The notes below the pieces were generated by a model. It had not been told where the DNA came from, ran no database searches, and worked only from the letters and a program-made list of their open reading frames with translations. Positions 13,304 to 48,580 of a stretch of 64,000 bases of DNA are shown piece after piece (within the stretch, counting starts at the first letter, position 1; every line of letters starts with the position of its first letter). The position numbers and the translations under genes were made by a program. The stretch is from a virus. The stretch lies in the IMG/VR virus record IMGVR_UViG_3300045988_151707, positions 32,001-96,000 of that record; one strand, written 5' to 3'.

Positions 13304-14776
13304 TTATGCTCGCATATATGCAGGTTCGCGGAGCTGTAGGGGGAGCCTCCTTTTCGGATAGTACCTTTCCGGCGGTCTGAATATGGAAGCATAGTCGTTC
13401 AGGTTTAGATATGATGTCTTGTTTGGTTTGTATTTGCTTTTCAGCACACAGACGAAGCTGCCGTTCTTGTTGCGGAAATACAGCCATTCGGAAAATGTTT
13501 CCAAAGCTTTCTTTGCTATGCGCTTTTTGATGTTGAAGGATGCTGTTCCTTTCATCAGACCGAAATAGCTGTTTATGCTTTGCATGACGTGTACGGCGTT
13601 ATCGTACGACGGCATCCGGCTGTATTCTTCTATCGCTGTATGAAGGGCGTGTACTGTGCGGTTGGATATGTAGATACGGTTCAGCTTTACTACTTTTCCG
13701 CAGAACTTTACTCCGTGTGAGGCCGGCTGTATGTAGAATTTATCGGGATGGACTTTTAGTTTCAGCCGTCCGGTCGCTTTTATGAATACTTTCCGGGCAT
13801 GGATTATTTCGGCTGCTGTTTCTGCCACCACGCATATATCATCTACAAACCGTGTGTATCTCACTCCGGCTTTTATCATTTCCGCATCAGCTTCCGCCAT
13901 GACGAGGTTTGCGAGGAGTTGGGAATAGAAGTTTCCTATCGGGAGTCCTTTATCGGGTGGAAGTCCGAAAAGGCTTTTGTTGGGCGGAACTTTATCCCAC
14001 ATTTTTATATCGGAGCGTCGCTCGCAGTCTGTGGCCGGATTGTGCTGTATCAGGGTGTGAAGCAGGGAGAGTTTTTCTTCCTTATCGGGTTTATCGTAAT
14101 ACATATCGGCGTATTTCCGAAAGATGCGGTATGCTGTTTCCTTGTCTATCGACATAAAGAAGCCTGATATATCCATTGTGGCCACAAAGGCTTTCTTTGT
14201 GTAACCGTCCGTTACATCACGAATATTCCGCTGTATCTGCTCGATGGCTGTAGATGCGGAATGCCCGATACGGTTGCCGTGGCTTACATCACCATTGGCT
14301 TCGTGGACTTTCTCGCATATCTCGCCAAGCATCGGAGCGACGTAGTGGTGCACGATACGGTCGGTGTAGTTAGCTGCAAACACTTCTCTATATACAGGAT
14401 AGTCGAGGACAAAACAGATGCTTGTCTGTGGCTGGTAGCCGTTGTCTATTCTGTTTATCAATTCATAAATACGCGACAGGTTGAAATGAAACGATGCTGC
14501 TTCGAGCGATGCGTGCTTGTTTTTGTAACAGTCACTTTCGGCAGCTATCCAGGCGGGCACTTTTTCTGATAAATCGGAGGCCGGCACCACGCTATAGGTG
14601 TTGTTCGTGTTGTTGTTGTTCAAGTTGCCATTTCCCATGTTCACATACCAGGCGTTGTTGCCATTGTTGCGGACACAGCTCCAGACGTTGCCGCCCAGGA
14701 CTTCTGCCCTGTTAATCGAAATAGCTTGCTCACCGCAAGCACAGGGACCTTTATCATTAAACAGTTCTGCCGACAT
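13304..14776 (-). CDS. DGR reverse transcriptase (the ORF as drawn includes the TR in frame; a GTG at 14560 is an alternative start)
   Basis: Motifs seen: REVFAANYTDRIVHH (motif 1/2), LPIGNFYSQLLANL (the DGR-type IGxxxSQ signature) and FVDD (YxDD box). It lies directly downstream of the TR. Confidence 0.9.
   Translation of the reverse strand: MSAELFNDKGPCACGEQAISINRAEVLGGNVWSCVRNNGNNAWYVNMGNGNLNNNNTNNTYSVVPASDLSEKVPAWIAAESDCYKNKHASLEAASFHFNLSRIYELINRIDNGYQPQTSICFVLDYPVYREVFAANYTDRIVHHYVAPMLGEICEKVHEANGDVSHGNRIGHSASTAIEQIQRNIRDVTDGYTKKAFVATMDISGFFMSIDKETAYRIFRKYADMYYDKPDKEEKLSLLHTLIQHNPATDCERRSDIKMWDKVPPNKSLFGLPPDKGLPIGNFYSQLLANLVMAEADAEMIKAGVRYTRFVDDICVVAETAAEIIHARKVFIKATGRLKLKVHPDKFYIQPASHGVKFCGKVVKLNRIYISNRTVHALHTAIEEYSRMPSYDNAVHVMQSINSYFGLMKGTASFNIKKRIAKKALETFSEWLYFRNKNGSFVCVLKSKYKPNKTSYLNLNDYASIFRPPERYYPKRRLPLQLREPAYMRA
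14575..14701 (-). repeat. DGR template repeat (TR), 127 nt
   Basis: Gapless alignment to 15219-15345. All 15 mismatches are A in the TR on the coding strand. It translates as an Asn (AAY)-rich peptide. Confidence 0.92.
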
Positions 14777-14779
14777 AGT

Positions 14780-15133
14780 TCAAGACTTTTCGGATCTGAC
14801 ATTCTTTATCCTCGCAAGCGAAGATAAAATATTATCGCACAAAACGTCTATTACAGACGCTTTCTCTTTGCTGCATCCTCCAAGAGCCACTATCAAGTAT
14901 ATCCCGAACTGCAACTCGTATGTCAGTTCTGTAGCTCTTTTATAATAGTCCATTCCACGGACCTGGCGCATAGCGTAGATGAAGAGTAATGCGCCTTGCT
15001 TCAGCATAGGATCTATATATGTTCTGCTTATGACCTTATAAGCTTTGCTGTTGATTTCTATGAGACAATTATTCAGGCGTATCACATCCTGAATAATCGG
15101 TGCGTCCAAATGTTTCCTCCCGGATCTGTTCAT
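14780..15133 (-). CDS. avd: accessory variability determinant (Avd)-like helical protein
   Basis: 117-aa helix-rich ORF in the canonical position between target gene and TR. Its stop is 3 nt from the RT-ORF ATG. The call is positional rather than motif-based. Confidence 0.55.
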   Translation of the reverse strand: MNRSGRKHLDAPIIQDVIRLNNCLIEINSKAYKVISRTYIDPMLKQGALLFIYAMRQVRGMDYYKRATELTYELQFGIYLIVALGGCSKEKASVIDVLCDNILSSLARIKNVRSEKS

Positions 15134-15183
15134 TTCTATTGTCGCGTATTAAATGTTAATATATTTTAATGCAAAAGTTAATG

Positions 15184-15202
15184 AGCCGTGCTCCGCACGG
15201 CT
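15184..15202 (-). promoter_or_regulatory. GC-rich hairpin 3' of the VR (DGR target-recognition hairpin/cruciform candidate)
   Basis: AGCCGTGC-TCC-GCACGGCT, an 8-bp stem that ends 17 nt beyond the VR 3' end. Confidence 0.55.
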
Positions 15203-15210
15203 GAGATAAA

Positions 15211-16629
15211 TCAAAAAGCGGAGGCCGGCACCACGCTACAGGTGCCGTACGCGTTGCCGTAGTACAAGGTGCCATTACCCATGTGCACATACCAGGCGTA
15301 GTTGCCACTGTAGCGGACACAGCTCCAGACGTTGCCGCCCAGGACGCCAGGTATGCCCCATTTTTCATAACTGTTAAGATAGTTTATCAATCCTGAAATT
15401 ATGCTTTTGTTTGTCCAGTATGGATATAATTCTTTCTCTCCTGCCATATACTTCCCTTCAAGTGTTTTGATGTAATACACAGCATGAGAGTCCGCCATAT
15501 TCCATTCGTAATTTGTACTGGAATTTCCCGGTCTGCTTATGTATGGGGTAATGATATACCAATAACCGTCAACGGTTATGGCTTCCGCTCCTTTTGCGCC
15601 CGGAGAAAGAAGAGGTCGTTCGGCGGAGTTTACTCCGGTGTCGTTCATGTTTACACCGTTTGTTTTCTGCTGTTCGTACAGCCATTCAGCGTATTCAGGT
15701 TTAAAATAATATGCGTTGTTTACTGAATACTTATTATTTGTATTGTACATTGCTTTCAAACCTGTGTTCTGGCCGTTTACGAAGAAAAACATATCTTCAC
15801 CTAACTGAGCCTGTACGCCTGATGAATTTAGGATTTCCACATCGGTTATTGTGCCTTCTGCTTCAGAAGATGTTATGCCGCTACAGATGGCAAACCTGTG
15901 GCGAAGCCATTCATTCTGTACATACATGGATTCAAGACGTTCGGCGTAATTATCCGCTATCATAGCATTTACATTACCGCAATTCTTTTCCATTATCCAG
16001 CGTTGCTTGGTATTACCGCTATAAAGTTCAAGCTTGTCGTCTTCCGTTACGGTTACGCTCCAGTCGGCTGCGAAGTGACTTCCTGCAGCATGGGTGCCAA
16101 GGTTCTCATCTATGGTTCCATGATAGTCTGTTCCTTCTCCTGTTCCGGTTCTCTGATCGTATTCATAAACGGAATGCTGCATTGCGTTTGATGCTTTGCT
16201 TGTAGTACCGGACGTGGCGTAATATTCTCCCTGCCACGGCCAATACAATATCGTTCTTATCCCGTTGCACTCCAAAGAGAATCCTACCGGAGGAGCAATG
16301 AGTTCGTTGTCGAAGCCGTTGGCCACGCTGCGCTCGTTCCATTCTTTTACCGTGTAATGCTTCAGGTCTGCATCTACAATCTTGATATGGTCGTTTGTAG
16401 CTACGGCTTCCGTCTTGCCTTCTTTTGTTGTGATGGCAGTGGAGCGTACCGGCAGTATCAGCATTTGCGATTCAAAGGCGTATTCATCCCCTGTCGGAAT
16501 GGCTGCTATTTTAGCCGGATATTCGGAAAGGATTTCTCCTACATTTTCTACACCCTTTGCTTCAATGGCTGCCTTTATGGCGGCTTTGCTTTCTTTTAAC
16601 TTGTTTAGTTTGTCTGCTGTCGTTCCCAT
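15211..16629 (-). CDS. DGR target (variable) protein; tail-fibre/receptor-binding candidate with a C-terminal variable domain
   Basis: 472 aa. The last ~42 codons are the VR (VLGGNVWSCVRYSGNYAWYVHMGNGTLYYGNAYGTCSVVPASAF). The N-terminus is fibre-like (KLNKLKESKAAIKAAIEAKG). The gene is translationally coupled to the upstream coiled-coil gene. Confidence 0.85.
   Translation of the reverse strand: MGTTADKLNKLKESKAAIKAAIEAKGVENVGEILSEYPAKIAAIPTGDEYAFESQMLILPVRSTAITTKEGKTEAVATNDHIKIVDADLKHYTVKEWNERSVANGFDNELIAPPVGFSLECNGIRTILYWPWQGEYYATSGTTSKASNAMQHSVYEYDQRTGTGEGTDYHGTIDENLGTHAAGSHFAADWSVTVTEDDKLELYSGNTKQRWIMEKNCGNVNAMIADNYAERLESMYVQNEWLRHRFAICSGITSSEAEGTITDVEILNSSGVQAQLGEDMFFFVNGQNTGLKAMYNTNNKYSVNNAYYFKPEYAEWLYEQQKTNGVNMNDTGVNSAERPLLSPGAKGAEAITVDGYWYIITPYISRPGNSSTNYEWNMADSHAVYYIKTLEGKYMAGEKELYPYWTNKSIISGLINYLNSYEKWGIPGVLGGNVWSCVRYSGNYAWYVHMGNGTLYYGNAYGTCSVVPASAF
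15219..15345 (-). repeat. DGR variable repeat (VR), 127 nt
   Basis: 112/127 identical to the TR. Every difference falls at a TR adenine. The conserved 3' GC-rich end CGTGGTGCCGGCCTCCG is IMH-like. Confidence 0.92.
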
Positions 16630-24086: not shown

Positions 24087-24383
24087 CTGTGTGTGTTGAT
24101 AAAACTCTCATCGAAGAAGGGAATCCCTGTTTTCCCTATCACGCCGCTAAATTACAAAAAATATTTATATCCGAATAAAACGGATATGTTTTTTTGACAA
24201 TTGAATGCTTATTTGCACTTTAAAACAATAAAAAGGGGAATATACCTCTCTTGGAAATATCCCCCTTTATGCATCTAATAATTCATTAAGAATTATAGCT
24301 GCAAATATAGCTTTTTATTATGATTGACATCTTGTTTATGCTTAATTTTTAATATATTTATAGTGTATCTAATAATAATCATT

Positions 24384-25528
24384 ATGAATAAAATTAAGTA
24401 TGAGCTTGTAACGCATCGTGTACACGGAGGAATGCTAGCTGTTTTTGTGAAATGTTCACAGTATGGTTCTGTAATAGAACTAGATACTAATGTCAGAGTG
24501 TTTAATGACGAATGGAGCAAAGAATTCGGACTTATTTCTAAAAATCCAAATGCCGCTAATCTTAACCTGCTAATCAGAAAACTTGTGTATAACCTGGAAG
24601 AGATTGAACTAACTTATTCTGGAGAAATTACATTGTCTAAATTGCATGACATCTATTCAAAACGTGGAGCTTCTGCAGACTGGTATGTAATGTGGGAAAA
24701 ATCCATGAATGAAAGAGGGTTAAAACCTCGTACTATAGAAATACATGAAAATGTTTTGAAGACTATAAAAAAATTCAGAGATTCTTGTCCTGTCACATCA
24801 TTGACAGAGGATTTCTTCCGCGGATTCATGGGATTTTTAATTAATTCCGGACTTAAATATTCAACCGTATGTAAGGAAATGCATGTTGTTAAGGCATATT
24901 ATAATATCGCACGTAAATTGTATGGGAATAAGGTTCCATCGGATGCATTCGCTTTTTACCATGATCCAAAAGACCTGAACAATACTTATAAACTGAAGTC
25001 GTTAAGTGATGATGATATACGTAAGATTGAGAATTATGTAGCATCTGGGACGTTATCAGAAAGTAAAAAGCTAACTATCAATCAATTCTTATTCATGAGC
25101 TATTCTGGAACTAGGATAAGTGATTTTGCTTCTCTCAACGAAAAAAACTTCAAGTTGGAAGATGGTCGGATTTGGCTTGAATATAATTCCGTAAAAACAA
25201 ATACACATGTCAGAATACCTCTTTTTGCTCTGTTTGATGGAAGAGGTGAGCAAATATATAGCCAGTATCAGAATAGACTTTCAGAGTTTTTTATGTGGGG
25301 AACAATTGCAGGTTCAATTCAAGGTTGTCTTCCGCTCTTAAAGGAAGTGGCCTTAACAAGCATGTAACCGCTCACGTTGCAAGACATACTTGCGCAAGCA
25401 GATTAATTAATAGGAATGTTCCTATAACTACAATACAGCAAGTAATCGGTCATAGACAAATAAAGACTACGATGATATATGCAAAGATTGACGACAATTC
25501 GTTTGTAAGACAATTGAAAGGATTATAA
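24384..25528 (+). pseudogene. tyrosine recombinase (integrase/invertase family) split by a -1 frame change in a T6 run
   Basis: Two ORFs, 24384-25367 and 25295-25528. The second carries HVARHTCAS (HxxR) and GHRQIKTTMIY (catalytic Tyr). Adding one T to the T-run at 25287-25292 fuses them. Confidence 0.75.
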
Positions 25529-25551
25529 AAAGCCTCTTTACGAGGCTTTTT
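25527..25551 (+). terminator. rho-independent terminator after the recombinase gene
   Basis: AAAGCCTC-TTTAC-GAGGCTTT followed by TTT. Confidence 0.65.
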
Positions 25552-25555
25552 ACAA

Positions 25556-25572
25556 GTTCTGGCGGAACTGAT
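25556..25572 (+). repeat. proposed inversion crossover site L (GTTCTGGCGGAACTGAT)
   Basis: 14/17 match to the minus-strand sequence at 26052-26068. It is in the same codon phase (V-L-A-E/G-L) as the expressed fibre gene. Confidence 0.55.
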
Positions 25573-25825
25573 GGGTGGATTTATAAGGAGAAGCCCAGTT
25601 TCAGAATCTTTCGACTCCTGTATAAATCAGGGCGTTTATAATATCAATAAGACCACTTATCCATCCGCAGTAAACTATCCTCCAAGTATTGTCTATGGGC
25701 TTCTATTTGTATTCAGTTCATCGAATGGATGGGTTTCACAATTATCTCATAATTTGGAAAATAATACAATACACACAAGAATAAGAAATGAAAATGGTAT
25801 TTGGAATGAGTGGAAACAGTTATAA
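25556..25825 (+). other. promoterless alternative tail-fibre tip cassette (silent copy)
   Basis: The reading frame is open from the crossover core. It ends in a knob-like tip (GVYN...YGLL...Q...R...NGIWNEWKQL) paralogous to the expressed tip. It converges on the fibre gene and overlaps it by 6 nt. Confidence 0.55.
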
Positions 25826-26404
25826 TTCTTTCCATTCAGTCCATTCTCCATTACTTATTTTTGCCCTTTGATAAGTCGTTCCAGTAAATATCTCTACTAG
25901 TATCTGAAATGCACTTTGATCAGATTTCGCAGAAAGCAGAAAACCAAAATATCCATTTGTGTTTGTTGAGCCATTCTCTGCATAATAATATCCATCTTCA
26001 ATGTTGTTCGCGTCAACCACTTTGCGTCCACGATAGGCGAAGGGGAATTGTATTAGTCCCGCCAGGACTGATGAAAACTGTTCTTTGCCAATATATATAG
26101 GATTCCCATTAGAGTCAATTCCTCTTATAAAAGGAATATCTTCTGAAGGCTCATTCAATTTCTCTGATTTTGAAATTTCTCTAGATGCATCTCCTATACT
26201 GATTATTCCAGTTTCCATATCGCTCGGATTTGAAACTATAAAATTTTTAGGAGAATTTATTTGTAAAAATGATGACATTAATTCAGAGATTACTTTTTTC
26301 ATGGAATCTTTTGACATCTTTTGTACATCCCCATTACTCTTTACACCAAGAAAATAATCAAAATCTTCAACGGATGTAACGTCTGATAATTTTTTATCTG
26401 CCAT
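25820..26404 (-). CDS. tail fibre protein with a knob-like C-terminal tip (expressed orientation)
   Basis: 194 aa. The C-terminus GYYY...GFLL...QIL...R...NGEWTEWKEL fits the pyocin-knob/fibre-tip pattern. The crossover core lies at codons 113-118. Confidence 0.6.
   Translation of the reverse strand: MADKKLSDVTSVEDFDYFLGVKSNGDVQKMSKDSMKKVISELMSSFLQINSPKNFIVSNPSDMETGIISIGDASREISKSEKLNEPSEDIPFIRGIDSNGNPIYIGKEQFSSVLAGLIQFPFAYRGRKVVDANNIEDGYYYAENGSTNTNGYFGFLLSAKSDQSAFQILVEIFTGTTYQRAKISNGEWTEWKEL
26052..26068 (-). repeat. proposed inversion crossover site R (GTCCTGGCGGGACTAAT on the minus strand)
   Basis: Inverted partner of 25556-25572, inside the fibre gene at the constant/variable junction. 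Confidence 0.55.
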
Positions 26405-43494: not shown

Positions 43495-43895
43495 AATAAA
43501 TACTTTTATTCAAACATACTTTTATTCTTTTATATAAAAATACTTTTACTCTTTTATTATTTCATACTTTTATATTTTCATTCAGTTGTATTAAAACATT
43601 ATTATTCTTTTGCATATCTGTATATTTGAATGTAAATACTTTTACTCTTTCATACTTTTATACTTTTATGTTTTTATACTTTTACTCAATTATTCTTTTA
43701 TACGTTCATACTTCTATGATTTTGTACTAAAATATCTTTCCATCACCCATTTTGTATTTTCACACAAAAGTATGTTTATATAAAAATACTTTTGTGTTTT
43801 TACGTTTCTATGCTTTTATTCATTTATACTATTATTATTTTATGTATCCGCACAAAAATGCTTTTATATTTTTATTCAAAAATACTTTTATGCGT
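43495..43895. repeat. centromere-like array of short TACTTTTA(T/C) repeats upstream of parA
   Basis: At least nine exact TACTTTTA copies plus variants (TGCTTTTAT, TACTTCTAT, TACTTTTGT) in a very AT-rich 400 bp. Confidence 0.6.
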
Positions 43896-44002
43896 TTGCA
43901 CATTTGAATATTTACATTTTTGCATAAAAATATTTCTGTATTTATGGAGGAAATGAAAAAAAACGACTATCTTTGCAGTGTAATAAAACAAAAACATTTG
44001 AT

Positions 44003-44785
44003 ATGGCAATTACAATTTCTTCATTCAACTTTAAGGGTGGAGTAGGGAAGACCACTACCACCGTCAATCTGGCAAAAGCCTTACATTCTCTTGGTAAACG
44101 TGTGCTGGTAATAGATGCCGACGCACAGGGTAACGCATCTAAAATGATGGGATTCCGTCTGGCCACGGAAAAGGATGGTAAAACCCTTTACGAAGCCATG
44201 TCTGGAAATGCCAGCATCATGGAATGTGTGTTCTGTGAAAATGAAAACGAAGAAAGCTTCGACTTCATTCCTTCACGCCCGAACTTATACCAGTGCGAAC
44301 AGGAACTGGTTAGCCGTACCGGACGCGAATACATCCTTCGCATGATGCTGAACAATCTGGAAGACCATTATGATTTTATCCTGATTGACTGCCCTCCGAA
44401 CTACGGACTGGTTTCTATCAATGCAATGGTGGCTTCTGACTACCTGCTGATTCCTATCAACTGCGAAGTATTTGCCCTTGACGGAATGGGCCTGATTACC
44501 GCAAAATATGAGGAAATCAAAAAGCTGGTGAACCCGAAACTTGAAATTCTGGGTTACATCATGTCACGCTACGACAAGCGTCTGTCGCTTCACCGTCAGG
44601 CATACGAACAGATGAATCAGAATTTCCCTGGGAAGGTGTTCAATACCACCATCCGCACGAACATTCAGCTGGCCGAATCGCCTGCGCAGCGCATGAACGT
44701 GTTCGATTTTGCGCCCAACTGCACGGGAGCTGCCGACTACATGGAGCTGGCCAAAGAGATTCTATCACGATTAGATAACCGGTAA
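44003..44785 (+). CDS. parA: ParA-family partition ATPase
   Basis: Deviant Walker A FNFKGGVGKTTT. A TATCTTTG box at 43968-43975 places the start at ATG 44003. Confidence 0.85.
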   Translation: MAITISSFNFKGGVGKTTTTVNLAKALHSLGKRVLVIDADAQGNASKMMGFRLATEKDGKTLYEAMSGNASIMECVFCENENEESFDFIPSRPNLYQCEQELVSRTGREYILRMMLNNLEDHYDFILIDCPPNYGLVSINAMVASDYLLIPINCEVFALDGMGLITAKYEEIKKLVNPKLEILGYIMSRYDKRLSLHRQAYEQMNQNFPGKVFNTTIRTNIQLAESPAQRMNVFDFAPNCTGAADYMELAKEILSRLDNR

Positions 44786-44796
44786 AACCCACGATT

Positions 44797-45297
44797 ATGG
44801 CTAAACAACGATTCAACCTGAATGAAACAATGCTCGATGCCCGGCAGGGCATTGAGGAAGCACGCGCCAACGCGGAGAAGGCAGGGGAGGAGAGTGCTGT
44901 GACTCAGGAAAAGGCAGAAGAAAAGACGGAAGAATCTCCTGCTACCTTCACTGCTGAAAACTCATGCGTTGAAGCAAATAACCAGAAAGAGGAAAACATC
45001 TGTCCGGAACAAGAGGCTGCGCCCGATAAAGAATCCGTTAAAAGTGAATCACCCGCAGTAGAACGGAAAATAAACGGCATACGAAAAAGAATTAGAAAAG
45101 ATGAAAAAGAGGGACGCATCATGCGGAATGTCTATCTGGAAGAAGACATGCTCGAGAAGCTGGAAGACATTAAGAAAAGCATGAACAAAGGCCGTAACAA
45201 GGAAAAGAAAGATACCTTGGTGTTTGTCATCGACTTGCTGAACGTAGCCGCGCAGGAGTTCATTGACAAATACTACAAAGACATCGTGGGGAAATAA
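44797..45297 (+). CDS. partition adaptor (ParB/ParG-like centromere-binding partner, by position)
   Basis: 166-aa ORF 12 nt after parA, with an acidic N-half and a basic helical C-half. Confidence 0.45.
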   Translation: MAKQRFNLNETMLDARQGIEEARANAEKAGEESAVTQEKAEEKTEESPATFTAENSCVEANNQKEENICPEQEAAPDKESVKSESPAVERKINGIRKRIRKDEKEGRIMRNVYLEEDMLEKLEDIKKSMNKGRNKEKKDTLVFVIDLLNVAAQEFIDKYYKDIVGK

Positions 45298-45318
45298 TTC
45301 CGCACAATTCATACACCG

Positions 45319-45359
45319 AAAGGGCAGGGGAGCACACGCTTCTCTGCCCTTCGCTTTTT
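45319..45359. terminator. rho-independent terminator after the par operon
   Basis: AAGGGCAG ... CTGCCCTT stem followed by GCTTTTT. Confidence 0.6.
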
Positions 45360-45367
45360 GAATGATG

Positions 45368-46240
45368 TCACATTTCTATCTCGATGGCCGGATTCCATTC
45401 GTCCGGATCAGAAAAAGTGATTCCCGTATTTCCACTGAACAGACGGCAGATGGCGTTTGTGCACCGGTTCCTCAGAAGCGGAACGCCGGAAGCCTGTGCA
45501 CCGTAAAGCATTTTCCCGTCGGCTCCCAGAGCCTCTATTTTCAGCGTCACGTCAAATTCTTCCGACTCGGTAGGAGTGAAGGTAAACACGGAGAAATAAA
45601 GCCCGCTACGGCCCGCATACTCGTCGCCTATCTCCCAGGTAATCGCATAGTCGGATGCGGAATCTGCGTCACCGTTACCGGTAGTCACATCCAGCGTGCG
45701 AAGATGACCGCCTACCGTCATTCGTACCGATTTCACCGAGGCTGGAAACGCATCTTTCACGGTAATCATGGCACGGCTTACTACGCGCTTCATTTGCAGT
45801 TCCTGACTCGAAGCCATATTCTCGTCCACTTGAAGAGAAAAGTCCTGCCAGAAAGTCTCTGTTACTTTCTCAGGAGTATATTTCATGCCTTCCATACTTC
45901 CTCCGGTACTGCTGTGAGCCAGGAAGTACACATGATGCGCTCCATACTTCATGTTCAGTGTAAGGGGAGAAGGAAGCGAAACGGTGTCCGCCTGCATCTG
46001 CTCGCCGTCCATGTAATCCCAATAGGAGAGGGTAGTGGCCAGCTCGGCCAGCGTGCCGGCACGTGAATTATTCCACTGGTTGATGTCTCCCTGTCCGATT
46101 TCCATAAACACCGGAAGGAAAGACACCCTGCACGTTTTCTCACTCGTCTGCCCTATATCCGTCGGACGGACGATGTTTTCCTTGCTGCAAGACGCCATAA
46201 TCAGGATAGCAGCCATGCAAATGCTTTTCGACAAATTCAT
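45368..46240 (-). CDS. lipoprotein, possibly fimbrillin (Mfa2/FimB)-like (start at ATG 46240)
   Basis: Lipobox MNLSKSICMAAILIMASC. The beta-rich body with the KRVVSRAMITV pattern is reminiscent of Bacteroidales fimbrial subunits (weak). Confidence 0.4.
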   Translation of the reverse strand: MNLSKSICMAAILIMASCSKENIVRPTDIGQTSEKTCRVSFLPVFMEIGQGDINQWNNSRAGTLAELATTLSYWDYMDGEQMQADTVSLPSPLTLNMKYGAHHVYFLAHSSTGGSMEGMKYTPEKVTETFWQDFSLQVDENMASSQELQMKRVVSRAMITVKDAFPASVKSVRMTVGGHLRTLDVTTGNGDADSASDYAITWEIGDEYAGRSGLYFSVFTFTPTESEEFDVTLKIEALGADGKMLYGAQASGVPLLRNRCTNAICRLFSGNTGITFSDPDEWNPAIEIEM

Positions 46241-46320
46241 GTTGTTTAGTTTTAAGTTTATACCATAATTAACGCACGTCCGGAGTTTCGTTTCCGGTTT
46301 TGATGGATTTTTATTGTAAA

Positions 46321-46760
46321 GTTCGGAAAGTTTGCACATTTATATAGTTCGGAATCTTTGCACCTTTACACGAAATAATTTCCCTTACTGACGGAATCTT
46401 TTCACCTATTGACGGAATCATTGCACCTACATGCTTTTAAAAACCTAATAATCAATGATTTTCAGAATTTATATAATTATCTATATGTTATAATATAAAG
46501 AAACGATAGTTTCTTAAATAAGGGATAAAAGAAAAAATATATCGGTCTGCTTTTATTAATGATATTATGATATAAGATATATAGTAAAGCGTAATTTGCT
46601 ATAAAACAAATAGTTATATTAATAAAGGTGCAAACTTTCCGTTTTTAGGGGTAAACTTTCCGTCAATATGTACTAAGTTTCCGTGTGTATGGGTAAAGAT
46701 TCCGTCATATAGGGGAAAATTTCCGAACATATATAGATTAAAGGTGCAAACTTTCCGAAC
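46321..46760. repeat. iteron-type replication origin: 4 leftward and 6 rightward iterons flanking an AT-rich spacer
   Basis: Consensus GGTGCAAA(C/G)TTTCCG(N)(A)C. Right set at 46627, 46648, 46671, 46691, 46712 and 46743 (about 21-22-bp phasing). Left set, inverted, at 46321, 46347, 46389 and 46410. Confidence 0.75.
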
Positions 46761-46772
46761 TATTTTCATTCA

Positions 46773-46827
46773 ATATTTTCCGTTTTTGGAAAATATTGTC
46801 ATTTTATTTTCCGTTTTTGGAAAATAT
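46773..46827. promoter_or_regulatory. two copies of the TATTTTCCGTTTTTGGAAAATAT palindromic operator upstream of the XRE/rep operon
   Basis: Copies at 46773-46796 and 46805-46827, followed by a TATATTTG box at 46831-46838. Confidence 0.55.
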
Positions 46828-46855
46828 ATCTATATTTGTGCCAAATAACGAACCA

Positions 46856-47110
46856 ATGAAGATTTATTTAGAAGAAAGATTAAAAGAGTCAGGTATAAGC
46901 AAGGATGAACTGGCAAAGAGACTGGGTATTTCCAATTCAAGTCTGACAAAGAAATTAAACGGTCCGTCACGTACTAACCTGCAATTTCTGGAAAGTGTGG
47001 CCGATGCGTTGGGAATATCTGTTTTCTCTCTTATTGATGATGAAAAATACGTGAAGGTAGGTACATTCCAGTCCGATGGGAATACTTACGAAATACGAAA
47101 AATAAACTGA
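46856..47110 (+). CDS. XRE-family HTH regulator
   Basis: LKESGISKDELAKRLGISNSSLTKKLNG...LQFLESVADALGISVFSL fits the HTH_3 pattern. Start moved to ATG 46856, downstream of the -7 box. Confidence 0.7.
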   Translation: MKIYLEERLKESGISKDELAKRLGISNSSLTKKLNGPSRTNLQFLESVADALGISVFSLIDDEKYVKVGTFQSDGNTYEIRKIN

Positions 47111-47116
47111 TAGCCT

Positions 47117-48580
47117 ATGCGACGGAAGAAAAGCACCACCGAATCAAGCAACTCACTGATTAAAGAGCTTAGCTCAGTAGAGTTTATTAAACAACCCTAT
47201 CTGTATGCCATGGTAGGGGCAGATTTTTCACTCTACCAGCGAAGTATTATGATAGAAATCATGAAGTCCATGCAAGACCGCTTCAATGAATTTCTGAAAA
47301 ACAGACGTGCAGACGGACAAATGTCACTTTTCCCTGATGATCTGGACGACAATCAGATTCTCACATTCCGAATCAGCGCTTCCTCTCTTGGAGTAAGTCC
47401 TCGTGACTATATGTATCTTAGTGAGGCATGCGATAATCTGATGAAGATGAACTGTTCTTTTTACAGATATGATGAAGTGGGAAGACCTATTCGTACATAC
47501 GCACATCTGTTTTCTACGATTGAAATGCCGATGATTCCGGTTTCAGGCTCGAAAGAAAAAGAAAGGAGGATGAACTACGTGGAAGCGCGTATGGATGCAA
47601 AGGTCTTGAAAGAACTGTGCGATTTAGGTAACGGGAAAGGTTATCTTGACCACATTTACCGAATAGCCCGTATCTGCAAACGCAAACGTACACCAAGCAT
47701 TTATATTTATCTTTCCAGATGGAAAGACTTCCCAAAGAAATCGGTGGAATATGTGGAGCTCAAGAAATTCCTGGGAGTGATAACATTGGAAAATGTGGAG
47801 GTGAACGGGGTAGTTACTAAGACTTACGAAAAAGACCGATACCCGAAATTCAGTAAATTTTGTAAGGAAGTGATGGACCCGATACGTGAAGACCTCGACC
47901 GTATGGCCAGCGAAAATCAGGTGGACTTTACTTTTGATTATGAACCTGTATATAAGGGTTCAACGAAGAGAGGAAACCCTGACGAGATATTATTTAAAAT
48001 CAAGCTGAGTGAACTTGGGGAGGAAATGTCGCGTAAACGAAGACAGCAAAAACTTCCCGCAGATATTTGGGACTTGCTTCGCTCTGAATATAAACTGACG
48101 GAAACAGATGTGCGTATGCTGACCGATATGCTTCCTGACGAACTGATGAACGATTTCCGGGCCGAAGTGCTGGCACTTCGTGACCGAATGAACCGGTATA
48201 AGGTAAACAATCCGAAAAGTTATGTGGTGACTTCACTCAAGAATTTTATTATCCAGCACACTCCGGAGGCAAAAGAAACAAAAGAAGATAATAGGGTAGA
48301 GGAGAAGAAAACCGTCAAGCATAAAACAATAAGCGAAGAAGATAAAAGCCGATGGATGGCATTTATGGAACTTCTTCAAGGTTCTGTAAGTCCGGTTGAA
48401 TTTAGCACCTGGCTGTCGTCGCTTGAATTTGTTTCGCTTAATGGTGAGGAAGTGACACTATCTGTACCGGCTGCATACGTAGCGACTTATATTGACGAAA
48501 AGCTGAGTGCACCATTTAAACAAGCGCTTAATGCAGTGTATGGCGAAGATGTAAAACTACTTTATGAAGTAAGAAAATAA
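47117..48580 (+). CDS. rep: plasmid-type replication initiator (Rep_3-like N-terminal region) with a DnaA-domain-I-like C-terminus
   Basis: The FIKQPYLYAMVGADFSLYQRSIMIEIM pattern is typical of iteron Rep proteins. The C-terminus WMAFMELLQGSVSPVEFSTWLSSLEFVSLNGEEVTLSVPAAYVATYI matches the DnaA N-terminal domain pattern. Iterons lie upstream. Confidence 0.7.
   Translation: MRRKKSTTESSNSLIKELSSVEFIKQPYLYAMVGADFSLYQRSIMIEIMKSMQDRFNEFLKNRRADGQMSLFPDDLDDNQILTFRISASSLGVSPRDYMYLSEACDNLMKMNCSFYRYDEVGRPIRTYAHLFSTIEMPMIPVSGSKEKERRMNYVEARMDAKVLKELCDLGNGKGYLDHIYRIARICKRKRTPSIYIYLSRWKDFPKKSVEYVELKKFLGVITLENVEVNGVVTKTYEKDRYPKFSKFCKEVMDPIREDLDRMASENQVDFTFDYEPVYKGSTKRGNPDEILFKIKLSELGEEMSRKRRQQKLPADIWDLLRSEYKLTETDVRMLTDMLPDELMNDFRAEVLALRDRMNRYKVNNPKSYVVTSLKNFIIQHTPEAKETKEDNRVEEKKTVKHKTISEEDKSRWMAFMELLQGSVSPVEFSTWLSSLEFVSLNGEEVTLSVPAAYVATYIDEKLSAPFKQALNAVYGEDVKLLYEVRK

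What the first reader, a model, noticed from the sequence alone, without database searches (positions are those of the whole stretch)
43495..48580. Plasmid maintenance module inside a tailed-phage genome (phage-plasmid lifestyle)
A full plasmid-type module lies between phage operons:
- an AT-rich array of short repeats;
- a ParA with the deviant Walker A KGGVGKT, plus a small partner;
- an iteron origin;
- an XRE regulator and a Rep initiator.

The only recombinase in the window looks dedicated to the fibre switch and is frameshifted. No att-like duplication or host flank is visible anywhere in 64 kb. This argues for extrachromosomal, P1/N15-style lysogeny, which is poorly documented in Bacteroidota.
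Basis: partly seen in the sequence, partly recalled or inferred. Interest (0 to 1): 0.7.

Follow-up and report, generated by a model that had tools for sequence, protein, structure and literature searches.

The report
Plasmid replication-partition module in gut phage
A roughly 110-kb tailed phage of gut Bacteroidales, with no working integrase, carries a complete plasmid-style replication and segregation cassette, so it most likely persists in its host as a low-copy circular plasmid; this lifestyle has been shown in this phylum only for crAssphage, which uses different machinery.

Summary
At 43.5-48.6 kb lie these parts:
- an array of 8-bp phased ATACTTTT repeats;
- a small Soj-like ParA (KGGVGKT);
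- a 166-aa partner;
- 11 iterons of 21 nt in two inverted arrays around a 190-bp AT-rich spacer;
- two 23-nt operator repeats;
- an XRE gene;
- a 487-aa Rep related to Bacteroidota plasmid initiators, with DnaA domain I fused at its C-terminus.

Relatives with diverged Rep carry different iterons. Relatives with diverged ParA carry different upstream repeats. Rep and par alleles reassort among near-identical phages.

The window is 100% identical, over the 11,157 nt compared, to a 109,934-bp metagenome scaffold. That scaffold's two ends lie 48 bp apart inside the repeat array. A second 106.6-kb contig closes at a different place.

I tiled the whole genome and found no integrase or protelomerase. 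The only recombinase is frameshifted and sits beside an invertible fibre-tip segment. The genome also has an antirepressor, a separate primase-like replication protein and variable cargo.

Plasmid-state lysogeny of the circular P1 type, not the linear N15 type, is the best reading (about 0.7). It is inferred, not shown: no isolate, plasmid record or species-representative genome carries the element.

The parts
43499..43890 (+). Centromere-like array of about 17 ATACTTTT units on an 8-bp register (13 in one phase at 43499-43716, 4 in a second phase), upstream of parA.
   Evidence: Relatives with the same ParA allele keep the array. Relatives with ParA at 77% or 42% identity have different upstream repeats.
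43968..43975 (+). Bacteroidota-type -7 promoter box TATCTTTG, 28 nt upstream of the parA ATG.
   Evidence: That this is the promoter is inferred from the TAnnTTTG consensus (own knowledge).
44003..44785 (+). ParA: a small Soj-like (type Ib) partition ATPase with the deviant Walker A motif KGGVGKT.
   Evidence: Called as 260 aa in the independent contigs.
44797..45297 (+). ParA partner and putative centromere-binding adaptor. It has a conserved basic N-terminal peptide (aa 1-30), a variable acidic linker and a C-terminal strand-helix-helix pattern (aa 105-164).
   Evidence: The ribbon-helix-helix fold is not confirmed.
45368..46240 (-). Lipoprotein gene (290 aa; signal peptide ending in a lipobox Cys, ...LIMASC|SKE). 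It is embedded between par and ori in all variants and evolves fast.
   Evidence: No family hit.
46324..46430 (-). Left iteron array: 5 copies with a 21-nt register, in the complementary orientation.
46431..46622 (.). AT-rich spacer (GC 23-24%) between the two iteron arrays; probable DNA-unwinding element.
   Evidence: No DnaA box TTWTNCACA lies here.
46627..46757 (+). Right iteron array: 6 copies of GGTGCAAACTTTCCG-like 21-nt units.
46774..46827 (+). Two perfect 23-nt repeats, TATTTTCCGTTTTTGGAAAATAT, each with an internal palindrome, 31 nt apart, abutting the -7 box TATATTTG at 46831. Putative operator of the xre-rep operon.
   Evidence: A related pair is present in L146.
46857..47110 (+). 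XRE-family helix-turn-helix regulator (84 aa), 6 nt upstream of rep.
47117..48580 (+). Rep initiator (487 aa): a winged-helix Rep region (aa ~23-381) and DnaA domain I (aa 411-471).
24324..25528 (+). Context: the only recombinase in the genome, a tyrosine recombinase split by a frameshift near 25281.
25547..26077 (.). Context: a putative invertible segment bounded by 26-nt inverted repeats, holding alternative fibre-tip coding ends.

Best explanation
The element is a temperate, long-tailed phage of about 110 kb from gut Bacteroidales. Its prophage is most likely kept as a low-copy circular plasmid rather than integrated. The proposed mechanism follows; each step is marked as shown or inferred.

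**Replication.**
- Shown: the Rep is a plasmid-type initiator, and its iterons co-vary with the Rep allele.
- Inferred: Rep binds the 11 iterons of 21 nt that flank a 190-bp AT-rich stretch and melts it.
- Inferred: the fused DnaA domain I recruits the host replicative helicase. This would fit the absence of a DnaA box.
- Inferred: the small XRE protein and/or Rep shuts off the xre-rep promoter through the two 23-nt operator repeats.

**Segregation.**
- Shown: the operon layout, the phased array and its co-variation with the par allele.
- Inferred: the 166-aa partner binds the ATACTTTT array upstream of parA.
- Inferred: its conserved basic N-terminal peptide stimulates the Soj-like ParA ATPase, which separates sister copies over the nucleoid. 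This is type Ib logic.

**Lytic growth.** Inferred: it uses a separate replication set (a 1099-aa primase-like protein, SSB and others) and a terminase.

**Allele exchange.** Rep and par cassettes are swapped among near-identical phages. This is what plasmid incompatibility would select for.
For: **Rep**
- Residues 23-381 match 'replication initiation protein' or 'RepB family' genes on 38 Bacteroidota plasmids. Best E-values are 3e-22 and 8e-21.
- Distant homologues carry Pfam Rep3_C.
- The AF2 model matches RctB domains 2-3 (E 3e-4) and RepE54 (E about 1e-2).
- The C-terminus is DnaA domain I: Pfam 33.2 bits against a 24.6 cut-off, PDB 4tps at 1e-9, and Foldseek TM 0.82.

**Iterons differ with the Rep allele**
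- Window: GGTGCAAACTTTCCG, 21-nt register.
- Rep at 80% identity: GGTACAAAGATTCCG.
- Rep at 51% identity: GGTGAAAAACTACCGAACTT, 22-nt register.
- Rep at about 26% identity, on the same phage backbone: AGTGAACTACATGTCCACTAAA.

**Rep retention.** Lineages that lack the window-type Rep carry the alternative allele.

**Par**
- ParA is Soj-like.
- The repeat array is phased and enriched.
- Other par alleles have other arrays and can sit in inverted orientation.

**No integration route**
- Scaffold_145 closes on itself with a 48-bp gap.
- Contig 158337 closes at a different place.
- The Rep position in 14 near-full-length contigs varies from 3.5 to 87 kb.
- No integrase appears in the tiled genome.
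- The recombinase carries the same frameshift in at least 3 contigs.

**Temperate hallmarks and cargo**
- A KilA-N/ANT antirepressor.
- A primase-like protein and SSB encoded elsewhere.
- Variable cargo, including RteC/Schlafen islands, IS200/605 and ArdA.
Against: - There is no direct evidence of a plasmid state.
- The element is absent from PLSDB.
- It is absent from 185,579 species-representative genomes, in two pattern-based scans of limited sensitivity.
- The only NCBI copies are a metagenome and a MAG.
- A circular assembly is also expected for a phage with terminally redundant or circularly permuted virion DNA.
- The partner's DNA-binding fold could not be confirmed.
- One relative has an intact recombinase allele, though it is only 58% identical at the nucleotide level.
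- In one low-coverage contig, phage homology stops at window 61788 and bacterial-looking genes follow.
- A 237-kb contig carries part of the backbone.
- The last two items are unresolved.
Confidence: 0.7

Rival explanations
1. The phage is virulent or only pseudolysogenic. Rep plus iterons would be its ordinary infection-cycle origin, as with lambda O and its ori iterons. ParA and its partner would organise replicating or carrier-state genomes rather than provide stable inheritance.
For: - Initiator-plus-iteron origins occur in phages that are not plasmids (own knowledge).
- No DNA polymerase was recognised, so host machinery must be recruited in any case.
- No isolate lysogen or plasmid record was found.
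Against: - The full par operon, with a co-varying centromere-like array, is kept in every lineage examined.
- A separate primase-like replication protein and SSB are present.
- An antirepressor and XRE regulators are present.
- The Rep's relatives are plasmid initiators, with no match in 50,697 phage records.
Confidence: 0.15
2. The phage is integrative. Integration would use the tyrosine recombinase, which is intact in some relatives, or an IS/TnpB route. The plasmid cassette would be a recently captured passenger.
For: - An intact 379-aa recombinase allele exists in L054.
- A phage-to-bacterial-gene junction exists in L057.
- A 237-kb contig carries part of the backbone.
- IS605 and IS607 elements are present in relatives.
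Against: - The recombinase is a pseudogene in the window lineage, yet that lineage is widespread. The exact Rep protein occurs in 94 collection blocks.
- Two contigs close into circles with no host DNA.
- The L057 junction lies inside a gene, and the contig has only about 5x coverage.
- The flank of the 237-kb contig encodes more tail-fibre-like proteins, not host genes.
- Nothing was found in species-representative genomes.
Confidence: 0.1
3. The element is a large plasmid carrying a defective prophage. It would no longer make virions.
For: It has plasmid replication and partition genes, plus cargo typical of Bacteroides mobile elements: RteC, a TraG fragment, ArdA and LPD29.
Against: - The structural and lysis genes are uninterrupted: tape measure, TerL, head protease, a probable capsid protein and an amidase.
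- The diversity-generating retroelement (DGR) is active: 16 of 16 mismatches are at adenines of the template.
- Many near-identical genomes are catalogued as viral contigs.
Confidence: 0.05

Closest known systems
Escherichia phage P1 (circular phage-plasmid)
   Same: - A circular plasmid prophage with an iteron-binding Rep origin.
- A ParA-type partition operon with an adjacent centromere.
- A separate lytic replicon.
- An invertible tail-fibre segment.
(P1 features are from own knowledge.)
   Different: - There is no sequence relationship.
- P1 uses type Ia ParA/ParB with parS downstream. Here a small Soj-like ParA has a 166-aa partner and upstream 8-bp repeats.
- P1 RepA lacks a DnaA domain.
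- P1's fibre switch uses a serine invertase. Here the recombinase is a tyrosine type and is frameshifted.
- The host phylum differs.
Carjivirus communis (prototypic crAssphage), reported as a linear phage-plasmid (PMC10983915)
   Same: A phage of gut Bacteroidales that lacks an integrase and carries plasmid-type replication genes.
   Different: crAssphage is a Crassvirales member (PMC11652158), is reported as linear and uses a RepL-type replicase (PMC10983915, PMC11652158). The present element has a 2206-aa tape measure protein (a long tail), a circular map, a Rep_3-like iteron replicon and a par operon.
Rep_3/RepB-family iteron initiators of Bacteroidota plasmids (for example Segatella copri NZ_CP085934.1 and Prevotella nigrescens NZ_CP082843.1)
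   Same: Homologous over residues 23-381 at 23-29% identity. Iterons lie next to the gene.
   Different: The plasmid matches stop before residue 381, so the C-terminal DnaA domain I is not covered. Pfam Rep_3 itself does not score.
Type Ib partition systems with ribbon-helix-helix adaptors (TP228 ParF/ParG/parH; pSM19035 delta/omega)
   Same: - A small ParA.
- A small partner with a flexible N-terminus.
- A centromere made of many very short phased repeats upstream of the operon.
(Features of the known systems are from own knowledge.)
   Different: - ParA is closer to chromosomal Soj than to ParF.
- The partner has no detectable similarity to ParG or omega, and its fold is unconfirmed.
Integrase-less branch of 'Quimbyviridae' with a RepA-like protein (Benler et al. 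2021, PMC8008677)
   Same: Bacteroidetes gut phages with DGRs and antirepressors, no integrase and a winged-helix Rep. Episomal replication was proposed from sequence.
   Different: - Those genomes have a median length of 75 kb.
- The RepA-like gene sits beside a DnaB helicase.
- That branch lost its primase.
- No partition system or iteron origin was described.
Relatedness to the present phage was not tested.
Mycobacteriophages carrying parABS in place of an integrase (own knowledge: Dedrick et al. 2016)
   Same: Temperate phages whose prophage is held extrachromosomally by a par cassette. Par specificity diversifies through incompatibility.
   Different: Those use ParB/parS and belong to a different host phylum. 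No dedicated Rep-iteron cassette has been described for them.

Membership tests
Phage-plasmid | Complete phage structural, packaging and lysis genes | tested here: met
   Tape measure, TerL, head protease, amidase, and fibre genes plus a DGR.
Phage-plasmid | Plasmid-type replication initiator with a cognate origin | tested here: met
Phage-plasmid | No functional integrase in the complete genome | tested here: met
   Tiling of about 110 kb with precomputed and fresh Pfam scans. The only recombinase is frameshifted. ORFs under about 170 aa outside the window were not all scanned.
Phage-plasmid | Physical maintenance as an extrachromosomal replicon in growing host cells | not testable with these tools
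   There is only assembly-level circular closure. No isolate or plasmid record was found.
Rep_3 / RepB iteron initiators | Sequence membership (Pfam PF01051 Rep_3 or PF21205 Rep3_C) | tested here: inconclusive
   The window protein has no Rep_3 hit. Rep3_C appears only on homologues at 26-40% identity. tblastn reaches annotated plasmid Reps at E-values down to 3e-22.
Rep_3 / RepB iteron initiators | Tandem winged-helix fold | tested here: inconclusive
   The AF2 model has pLDDT 70. Foldseek gives RctB domains 2-3 at E 3e-4 and RepE54 at E about 1e-2, but TM scores are low, 0.17-0.34.
Rep_3 / RepB iteron initiators | Directly repeated iterons of about 20 bp next to an AT-rich region, specific to the Rep | tested here: met
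Type Ib ParA partition system | Deviant Walker A motif, and a small ParA without an N-terminal DNA-binding domain | tested here: met
   KGGVGKT motif; 260 aa aligned end to end with Soj 1wcv.
Type Ib ParA partition system | Small centromere-binding partner (ribbon-helix-helix) encoded downstream | tested here: inconclusive
   The ORF is present and conserved. The predicted pattern of coil, helix, helix fits, but nothing confirms the fold.
Type Ib ParA partition system | Repeat centromere upstream of the operon | tested here: met
   Phased, enriched and co-varying arrays. Binding itself is untested.
N15-type linear plasmid prophage | Protelomerase and hairpin telomere site | tested here: not met
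   No such domain was found in any large ORF (and the precomputed Pfam lists). Two contigs close as circles.
DnaA domain I | Pfam DnaA_N score above the gathering cut-off, and the fold | tested here: met
   33.2 bits against a 24.6 cut-off; PDB 4tps at 1e-9; Foldseek TM 0.82 and rmsd 1.6.

The most novel reading that the evidence does not exclude
This would be a globally common circular plasmid-prophage family of gut Bacteroidales. As far as the searched literature shows, it would be the first in the phylum with a full iteron-Rep plus ParA system. Its initiator would bypass host DnaA by carrying DnaA's own helicase-recruiting domain I. That architecture is shared by hundreds of unannotated protein clusters. 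Its rep and par cassettes would be swapped between near-identical phages under incompatibility selection.
Probability: 0.4. Interest if true: 0.75.

Novelty: new member of a known kind. Interest (0 to 1): 0.6.

Why it matters
- Most gut phage genomes appear to be host-associated, yet many lack recognisable lysogeny genes (PMC11463441). Surveys admit that phage-plasmids of Bacteroides are probably under-detected (PMC7969092).
- This element gives a concrete and widespread example with defined, clonable parts: an origin, an initiator, a centromere-like array and a partition ATPase. The exact Rep protein occurs in 94 collection blocks, and a neighbouring protein in 329.
- It could therefore explain long-term persistence without integration.
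- It could supply a new replicon and stability cassette for Bacteroidales genetics.
- It offers a natural system for studying incompatibility-driven cassette exchange.
- The Rep-DnaA domain I fusion raises a testable idea about DnaA-independent helicase recruitment.

Tried and rejected
- **No close nucleotide relatives.** Megablast of the module against GenBank phages and PLSDB plasmids found nothing.
- **Rep protein against phage records.** No match.
- **Species-representative genomes.** Two scans of 185,579 genomes, with the Rep protein and with a capsid-protein alignment, found nothing. Only 2-6 peptide patterns were used, so sensitivity is limited.
- **Capsid protein against PLSDB.** No match.
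- **Partner protein.** Pfam, PHROGs, NCBIfam, a PDB profile search and Foldseek on a low-confidence model gave nothing usable. The ribbon-helix-helix assignment therefore stays an inference.
- **Rfam and tRNA scans of the window.** Both empty.
- **DnaA boxes in the origin.** None.
- **NCBI-sourced Rep homologues.** They come from a metagenome and a MAG, not from isolates.
- **N15-style linear prophage.** Rejected: no protelomerase was found, and the map is circular.
- **Frameshift as an assembly error.** Rejected: the same 327-aa truncated product appears in three independent contigs.
- **Left unresolved.** These are the L057 junction at window 61788 and the 237-kb contig.

Full report
**Observation.**
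- Upstream of a 260-aa ParA (44003-44785; FKGGVGKTT; Pfam AAA_31 2e-54; PHROG ParA-like 6e-68) lies a stretch of 15-24% GC.
- In that stretch, 19 of the window's 44 near-matches to ATACTTTTA fall within 430 bp. None of 100 shuffles reached 44.
- The copies sit on a strict 8-bp register: 13 in one phase and 4 in a second.
- ParA aligns end to end with Soj-type ATPases (8ray 5e-47, 1wcv 3e-42), so it is the small type with no N-terminal DNA-binding domain.
- A 166-aa ORF follows at 44797-45297, with no family match.
- The origin has five 21-nt iterons (46324-46430), a 190-bp spacer of 23-24% GC, and six iterons in the opposite orientation (46627-46757).
- It also has two perfect 23-nt repeats, TATTTTCCGTTTTTGGAAAATAT, abutting a Bacteroidota-type -7 box.
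- An 84-aa XRE gene follows (46857-47110), then a 487-aa Rep (47117-48580).

**What the Rep is.**
- Pfam recognises only a C-terminal DnaA_N domain, at 33.2 bits against a cut-off of 24.6.
- tblastn against PLSDB links residues 23-381 to genes annotated 'replication initiation protein' or 'RepB family plasmid replication initiator' on 38 plasmids. All are Bacteroidota: Bacteroides, Phocaeicola, Segatella, Prevotella, Butyricimonas and Mucilaginibacter. Best E-values are 3e-22 and 8e-21.
- No match was found in 50,697 phage records.
- Homologues at 26-40% identity carry Pfam Rep3_C together with DnaA_N.
- An AlphaFold model (pLDDT 70) matches DnaA domain I (4tps, TM 0.82), RctB domains 2-3 (E 3e-4) and RepE54 (E about 1e-2).
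- A profile search of PDB sequences gives DnaA domain I at 1e-9.
- The architecture is not rare. 246 clusters at 50% identity match at E of 1e-30 or better, most of them over the full length.

**Evidence that proteins and sites work together.**
- The origin layout is conserved, but the iteron sequence changes with the Rep allele:
  - Rep at 80% identity: GGTACAAAGATTCCG;
  - Rep at 51% identity: a 22-nt GGTGAAAAACTACCGAACTT unit;
  - Rep at about 26% identity, on an otherwise identical phage backbone (L012): a 22-nt AGTGAACTACATGTCCACTAAA unit in direct arrays only.
- Contigs that lacked the window-type Rep carry this alternative allele, including a lineage whose probable capsid protein is only 64% identical.
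- The same holds for par. Contigs with the same ParA allele keep the ATACTTTT array whatever their Rep allele (L047, L012, L050).
- Contigs with ParA at 77% or 42% identity have the operon inverted and different upstream repeats, GATATAAAAATGTT-like and CTGTATAGC.
- The partner family has only 22 members in 5.8 billion proteins, all from this phage group.
- The partner has an invariant basic N-terminal 30 residues, a variable acidic linker and a conserved C-terminus.
- The AF2 model places two helices (116-130 and 135-164) after a coil in that C-terminus. This fits a ribbon-helix-helix dimer, but no search confirmed it.

**Genome context.**
- The window is 100% identical over 11,157 nt to ENA scaffold_145 of ERZ28657847, which is 109,934 bp long.
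- That scaffold ends at window coordinate 43533 and begins at 43582. It is therefore a closed circle broken inside the repeat array.
- IMG/VR contig 158337 (106,645 bp) also closes on itself, at a different point.
- The Rep start lies anywhere from 3.5 to 87 kb along 14 near-full-length contigs.
- I tiled the 46 kb outside the window and found:
  - a 1099-aa primase-like protein and a sigma/GerE-like protein;
  - a head protease, a probable capsid protein and TerL, which is 22-30% identical to terminases of Porphyromonas, Flavobacterium and Polaribacter phages;
  - a KilA-N/ANT antirepressor and a HIRAN-domain protein;
  - ArdA, LPD29 and an IS200/605 element;
  - SSB and methyltransferases.
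- No integrase, large serine recombinase or protelomerase appeared.
- The single recombinase (24324-25528) is frameshifted. The same truncated 327-aa product occurs in three independent contigs, while one relative has an intact but only 58%-identical allele.
- The recombinase abuts a segment bounded by 26-nt inverted repeats (25547-25572 and 26052-26077). That segment holds an 84-aa ORF and the C-terminus of a 194-aa ORF, and both end in the motif NG.W.EWK.L. This is the layout of an invertible fibre-tip switch.
- Relatives carry variable cargo, for example an island with RteC, Schlafen/AlbA_2, a GHKL ATPase and a TraG fragment.

**Interpretation.** The best reading is a temperate phage held as a low-copy circular plasmid.
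- Rep-iteron theta-type initiation would provide vertical replication.
- A type Ib-like ParA system would provide segregation.
- A distinct set of replication genes would serve lytic growth.
- The reassortment of rep and par specificities among near-identical phages is what incompatibility between co-resident plasmid prophages would favour.
- The lack of a DnaA box in the origin, together with the fused DnaA domain I, suggests direct helicase recruitment. This is inference.

**Limits.** All of this is genomic inference.
- Circular assemblies also arise from terminally redundant virion DNA.
- No isolate, plasmid record or species-representative genome carries the element. The NCBI copies are a metagenome and a MAG.
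- Two observations remain open:
  - a contig at about 5x coverage in which phage homology stops inside a gene at window 61788 and bacterial-looking oxidoreductase genes follow;
  - a 237-kb contig carrying part of the backbone next to further tail-fibre-like genes.

**Comparison with what is known.**
- In function, the closest model is P1: an iteron Rep, a par operon, a separate lytic replicon and an invertible fibre segment. There is no sequence relationship, and the partition type differs.
- N15-style linear maintenance is not supported.
- In Bacteroidota, crAssphage has been reported as a linear phage-plasmid with RepL (PMC10983915, PMC11652158).
- Benler et al. proposed episomal replication for an integrase-less 'Quimbyviridae' branch with a RepA-like protein (PMC8008677).
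- A gut survey found phage-plasmid-like viral clusters mostly among Firmicutes and Actinobacteria, plus crAssphage (10.1101/2025.02.07.636470).
- I found no description of a Bacteroidales phage with a complete iteron-Rep plus ParA cassette in the searchable library.

**Verdict.** The element is a new member of a known kind. Interest is 0.6.

Noticed in passing
window 13304-16629 (minus strand): An active diversity-generating retroelement. The reverse transcriptase is at 13304-14776. The template repeat is at 14571-14701 and the variable repeat at 15215-15345, at the 3' end of a 472-aa gene. All 16 mismatches fall on adenines of the template.
   Followed up: yes
window 24324-26404: A putative invertible fibre-tip switch. 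26-nt inverted repeats at 25547-25572 and 26052-26077 bracket an 84-aa ORF and the C-terminus of a 194-aa ORF, which share the end motif NG.W.EWK.L. The adjacent tyrosine recombinase is frameshifted in this lineage and replaced by a 58%-identical intact allele in L054. I did not compare the segment's orientation across contigs.
   Followed up: partly
window 11663, 17348, 24018, 31326, 32411, 43114 (+ strand coordinates): Six copies of TGAAGGACAAAAAA against 0.06 expected. At three sites (24018, 31326, 32411) the minus strand reads TTTTTTGTCCTTCA-N19-TAACTTTG; the other three were not checked for the -7 box. Where checked, the copies lie just upstream of minus-strand gene starts. This may be a phage-specific promoter element. 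A sigma/GerE-like protein is encoded just outside the window.
   Followed up: partly
window 47117-48580, residues 405-487: The Rep-type initiator fused to DnaA domain I is a widespread, essentially unannotated architecture. 246 clusters at 50% identity match at E of 1e-30 or better, and most are about 480-520 aa and align over the full length. Shorter relatives lack the C-terminal domain. The origin has no DnaA box.
   Followed up: partly
window 45368-46240 (minus strand): A lipoprotein gene is fixed between par and ori in all variants. Its family is limited to this phage group and diverges fast, at 43-97% identity. It may be a lysogenic-conversion or superinfection-exclusion surface protein, but that is speculation.
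   Followed up: partly
L057 4546-14152 (junction at window 61788): In a 25-kb contig at about 5x coverage, phage homology ends inside a 145-aa gene. At least 9.6 kb of AraC, aldo-keto reductase, FMN reductase, flavodoxin and transporter genes follow. None of the other loci match this stretch. It could be cargo, a chimeric assembly or a junction.
   Followed up: partly
L150 (ENA ERZ27263586 k141_25230, 237,151 bp): A contig more than twice the genome length carries the identical 429-aa HTH protein and neighbouring tail genes, next to different tail-fibre-like ORFs. Two similar places in the collection were not shown; the index lists contigs of 0.2-1 Mb in three blocks. Its nature is unknown: a concatemer, a larger relative or a mixed assembly.
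   Followed up: partly
L086 14554-20013: One relative carries an island inside the phage genome with RteC, a Schlafen/AlbA_2-HATPase_c_4-Fic-like protein, a GHKL ATPase and a TraG/TraD fragment. These genes are typical of Bacteroides conjugative elements or defence systems.
   Followed up: no
L055 1-8283 (just beyond the window's right end): This stretch holds ArdA anti-restriction, LPD29, DUF4121 and BRCT-domain genes, followed further along by an IS200/IS605 element (Y1 transposase plus TnpB). Other relatives have IS607-type insertions (resolvase plus TnpB) at other sites.
   Followed up: no
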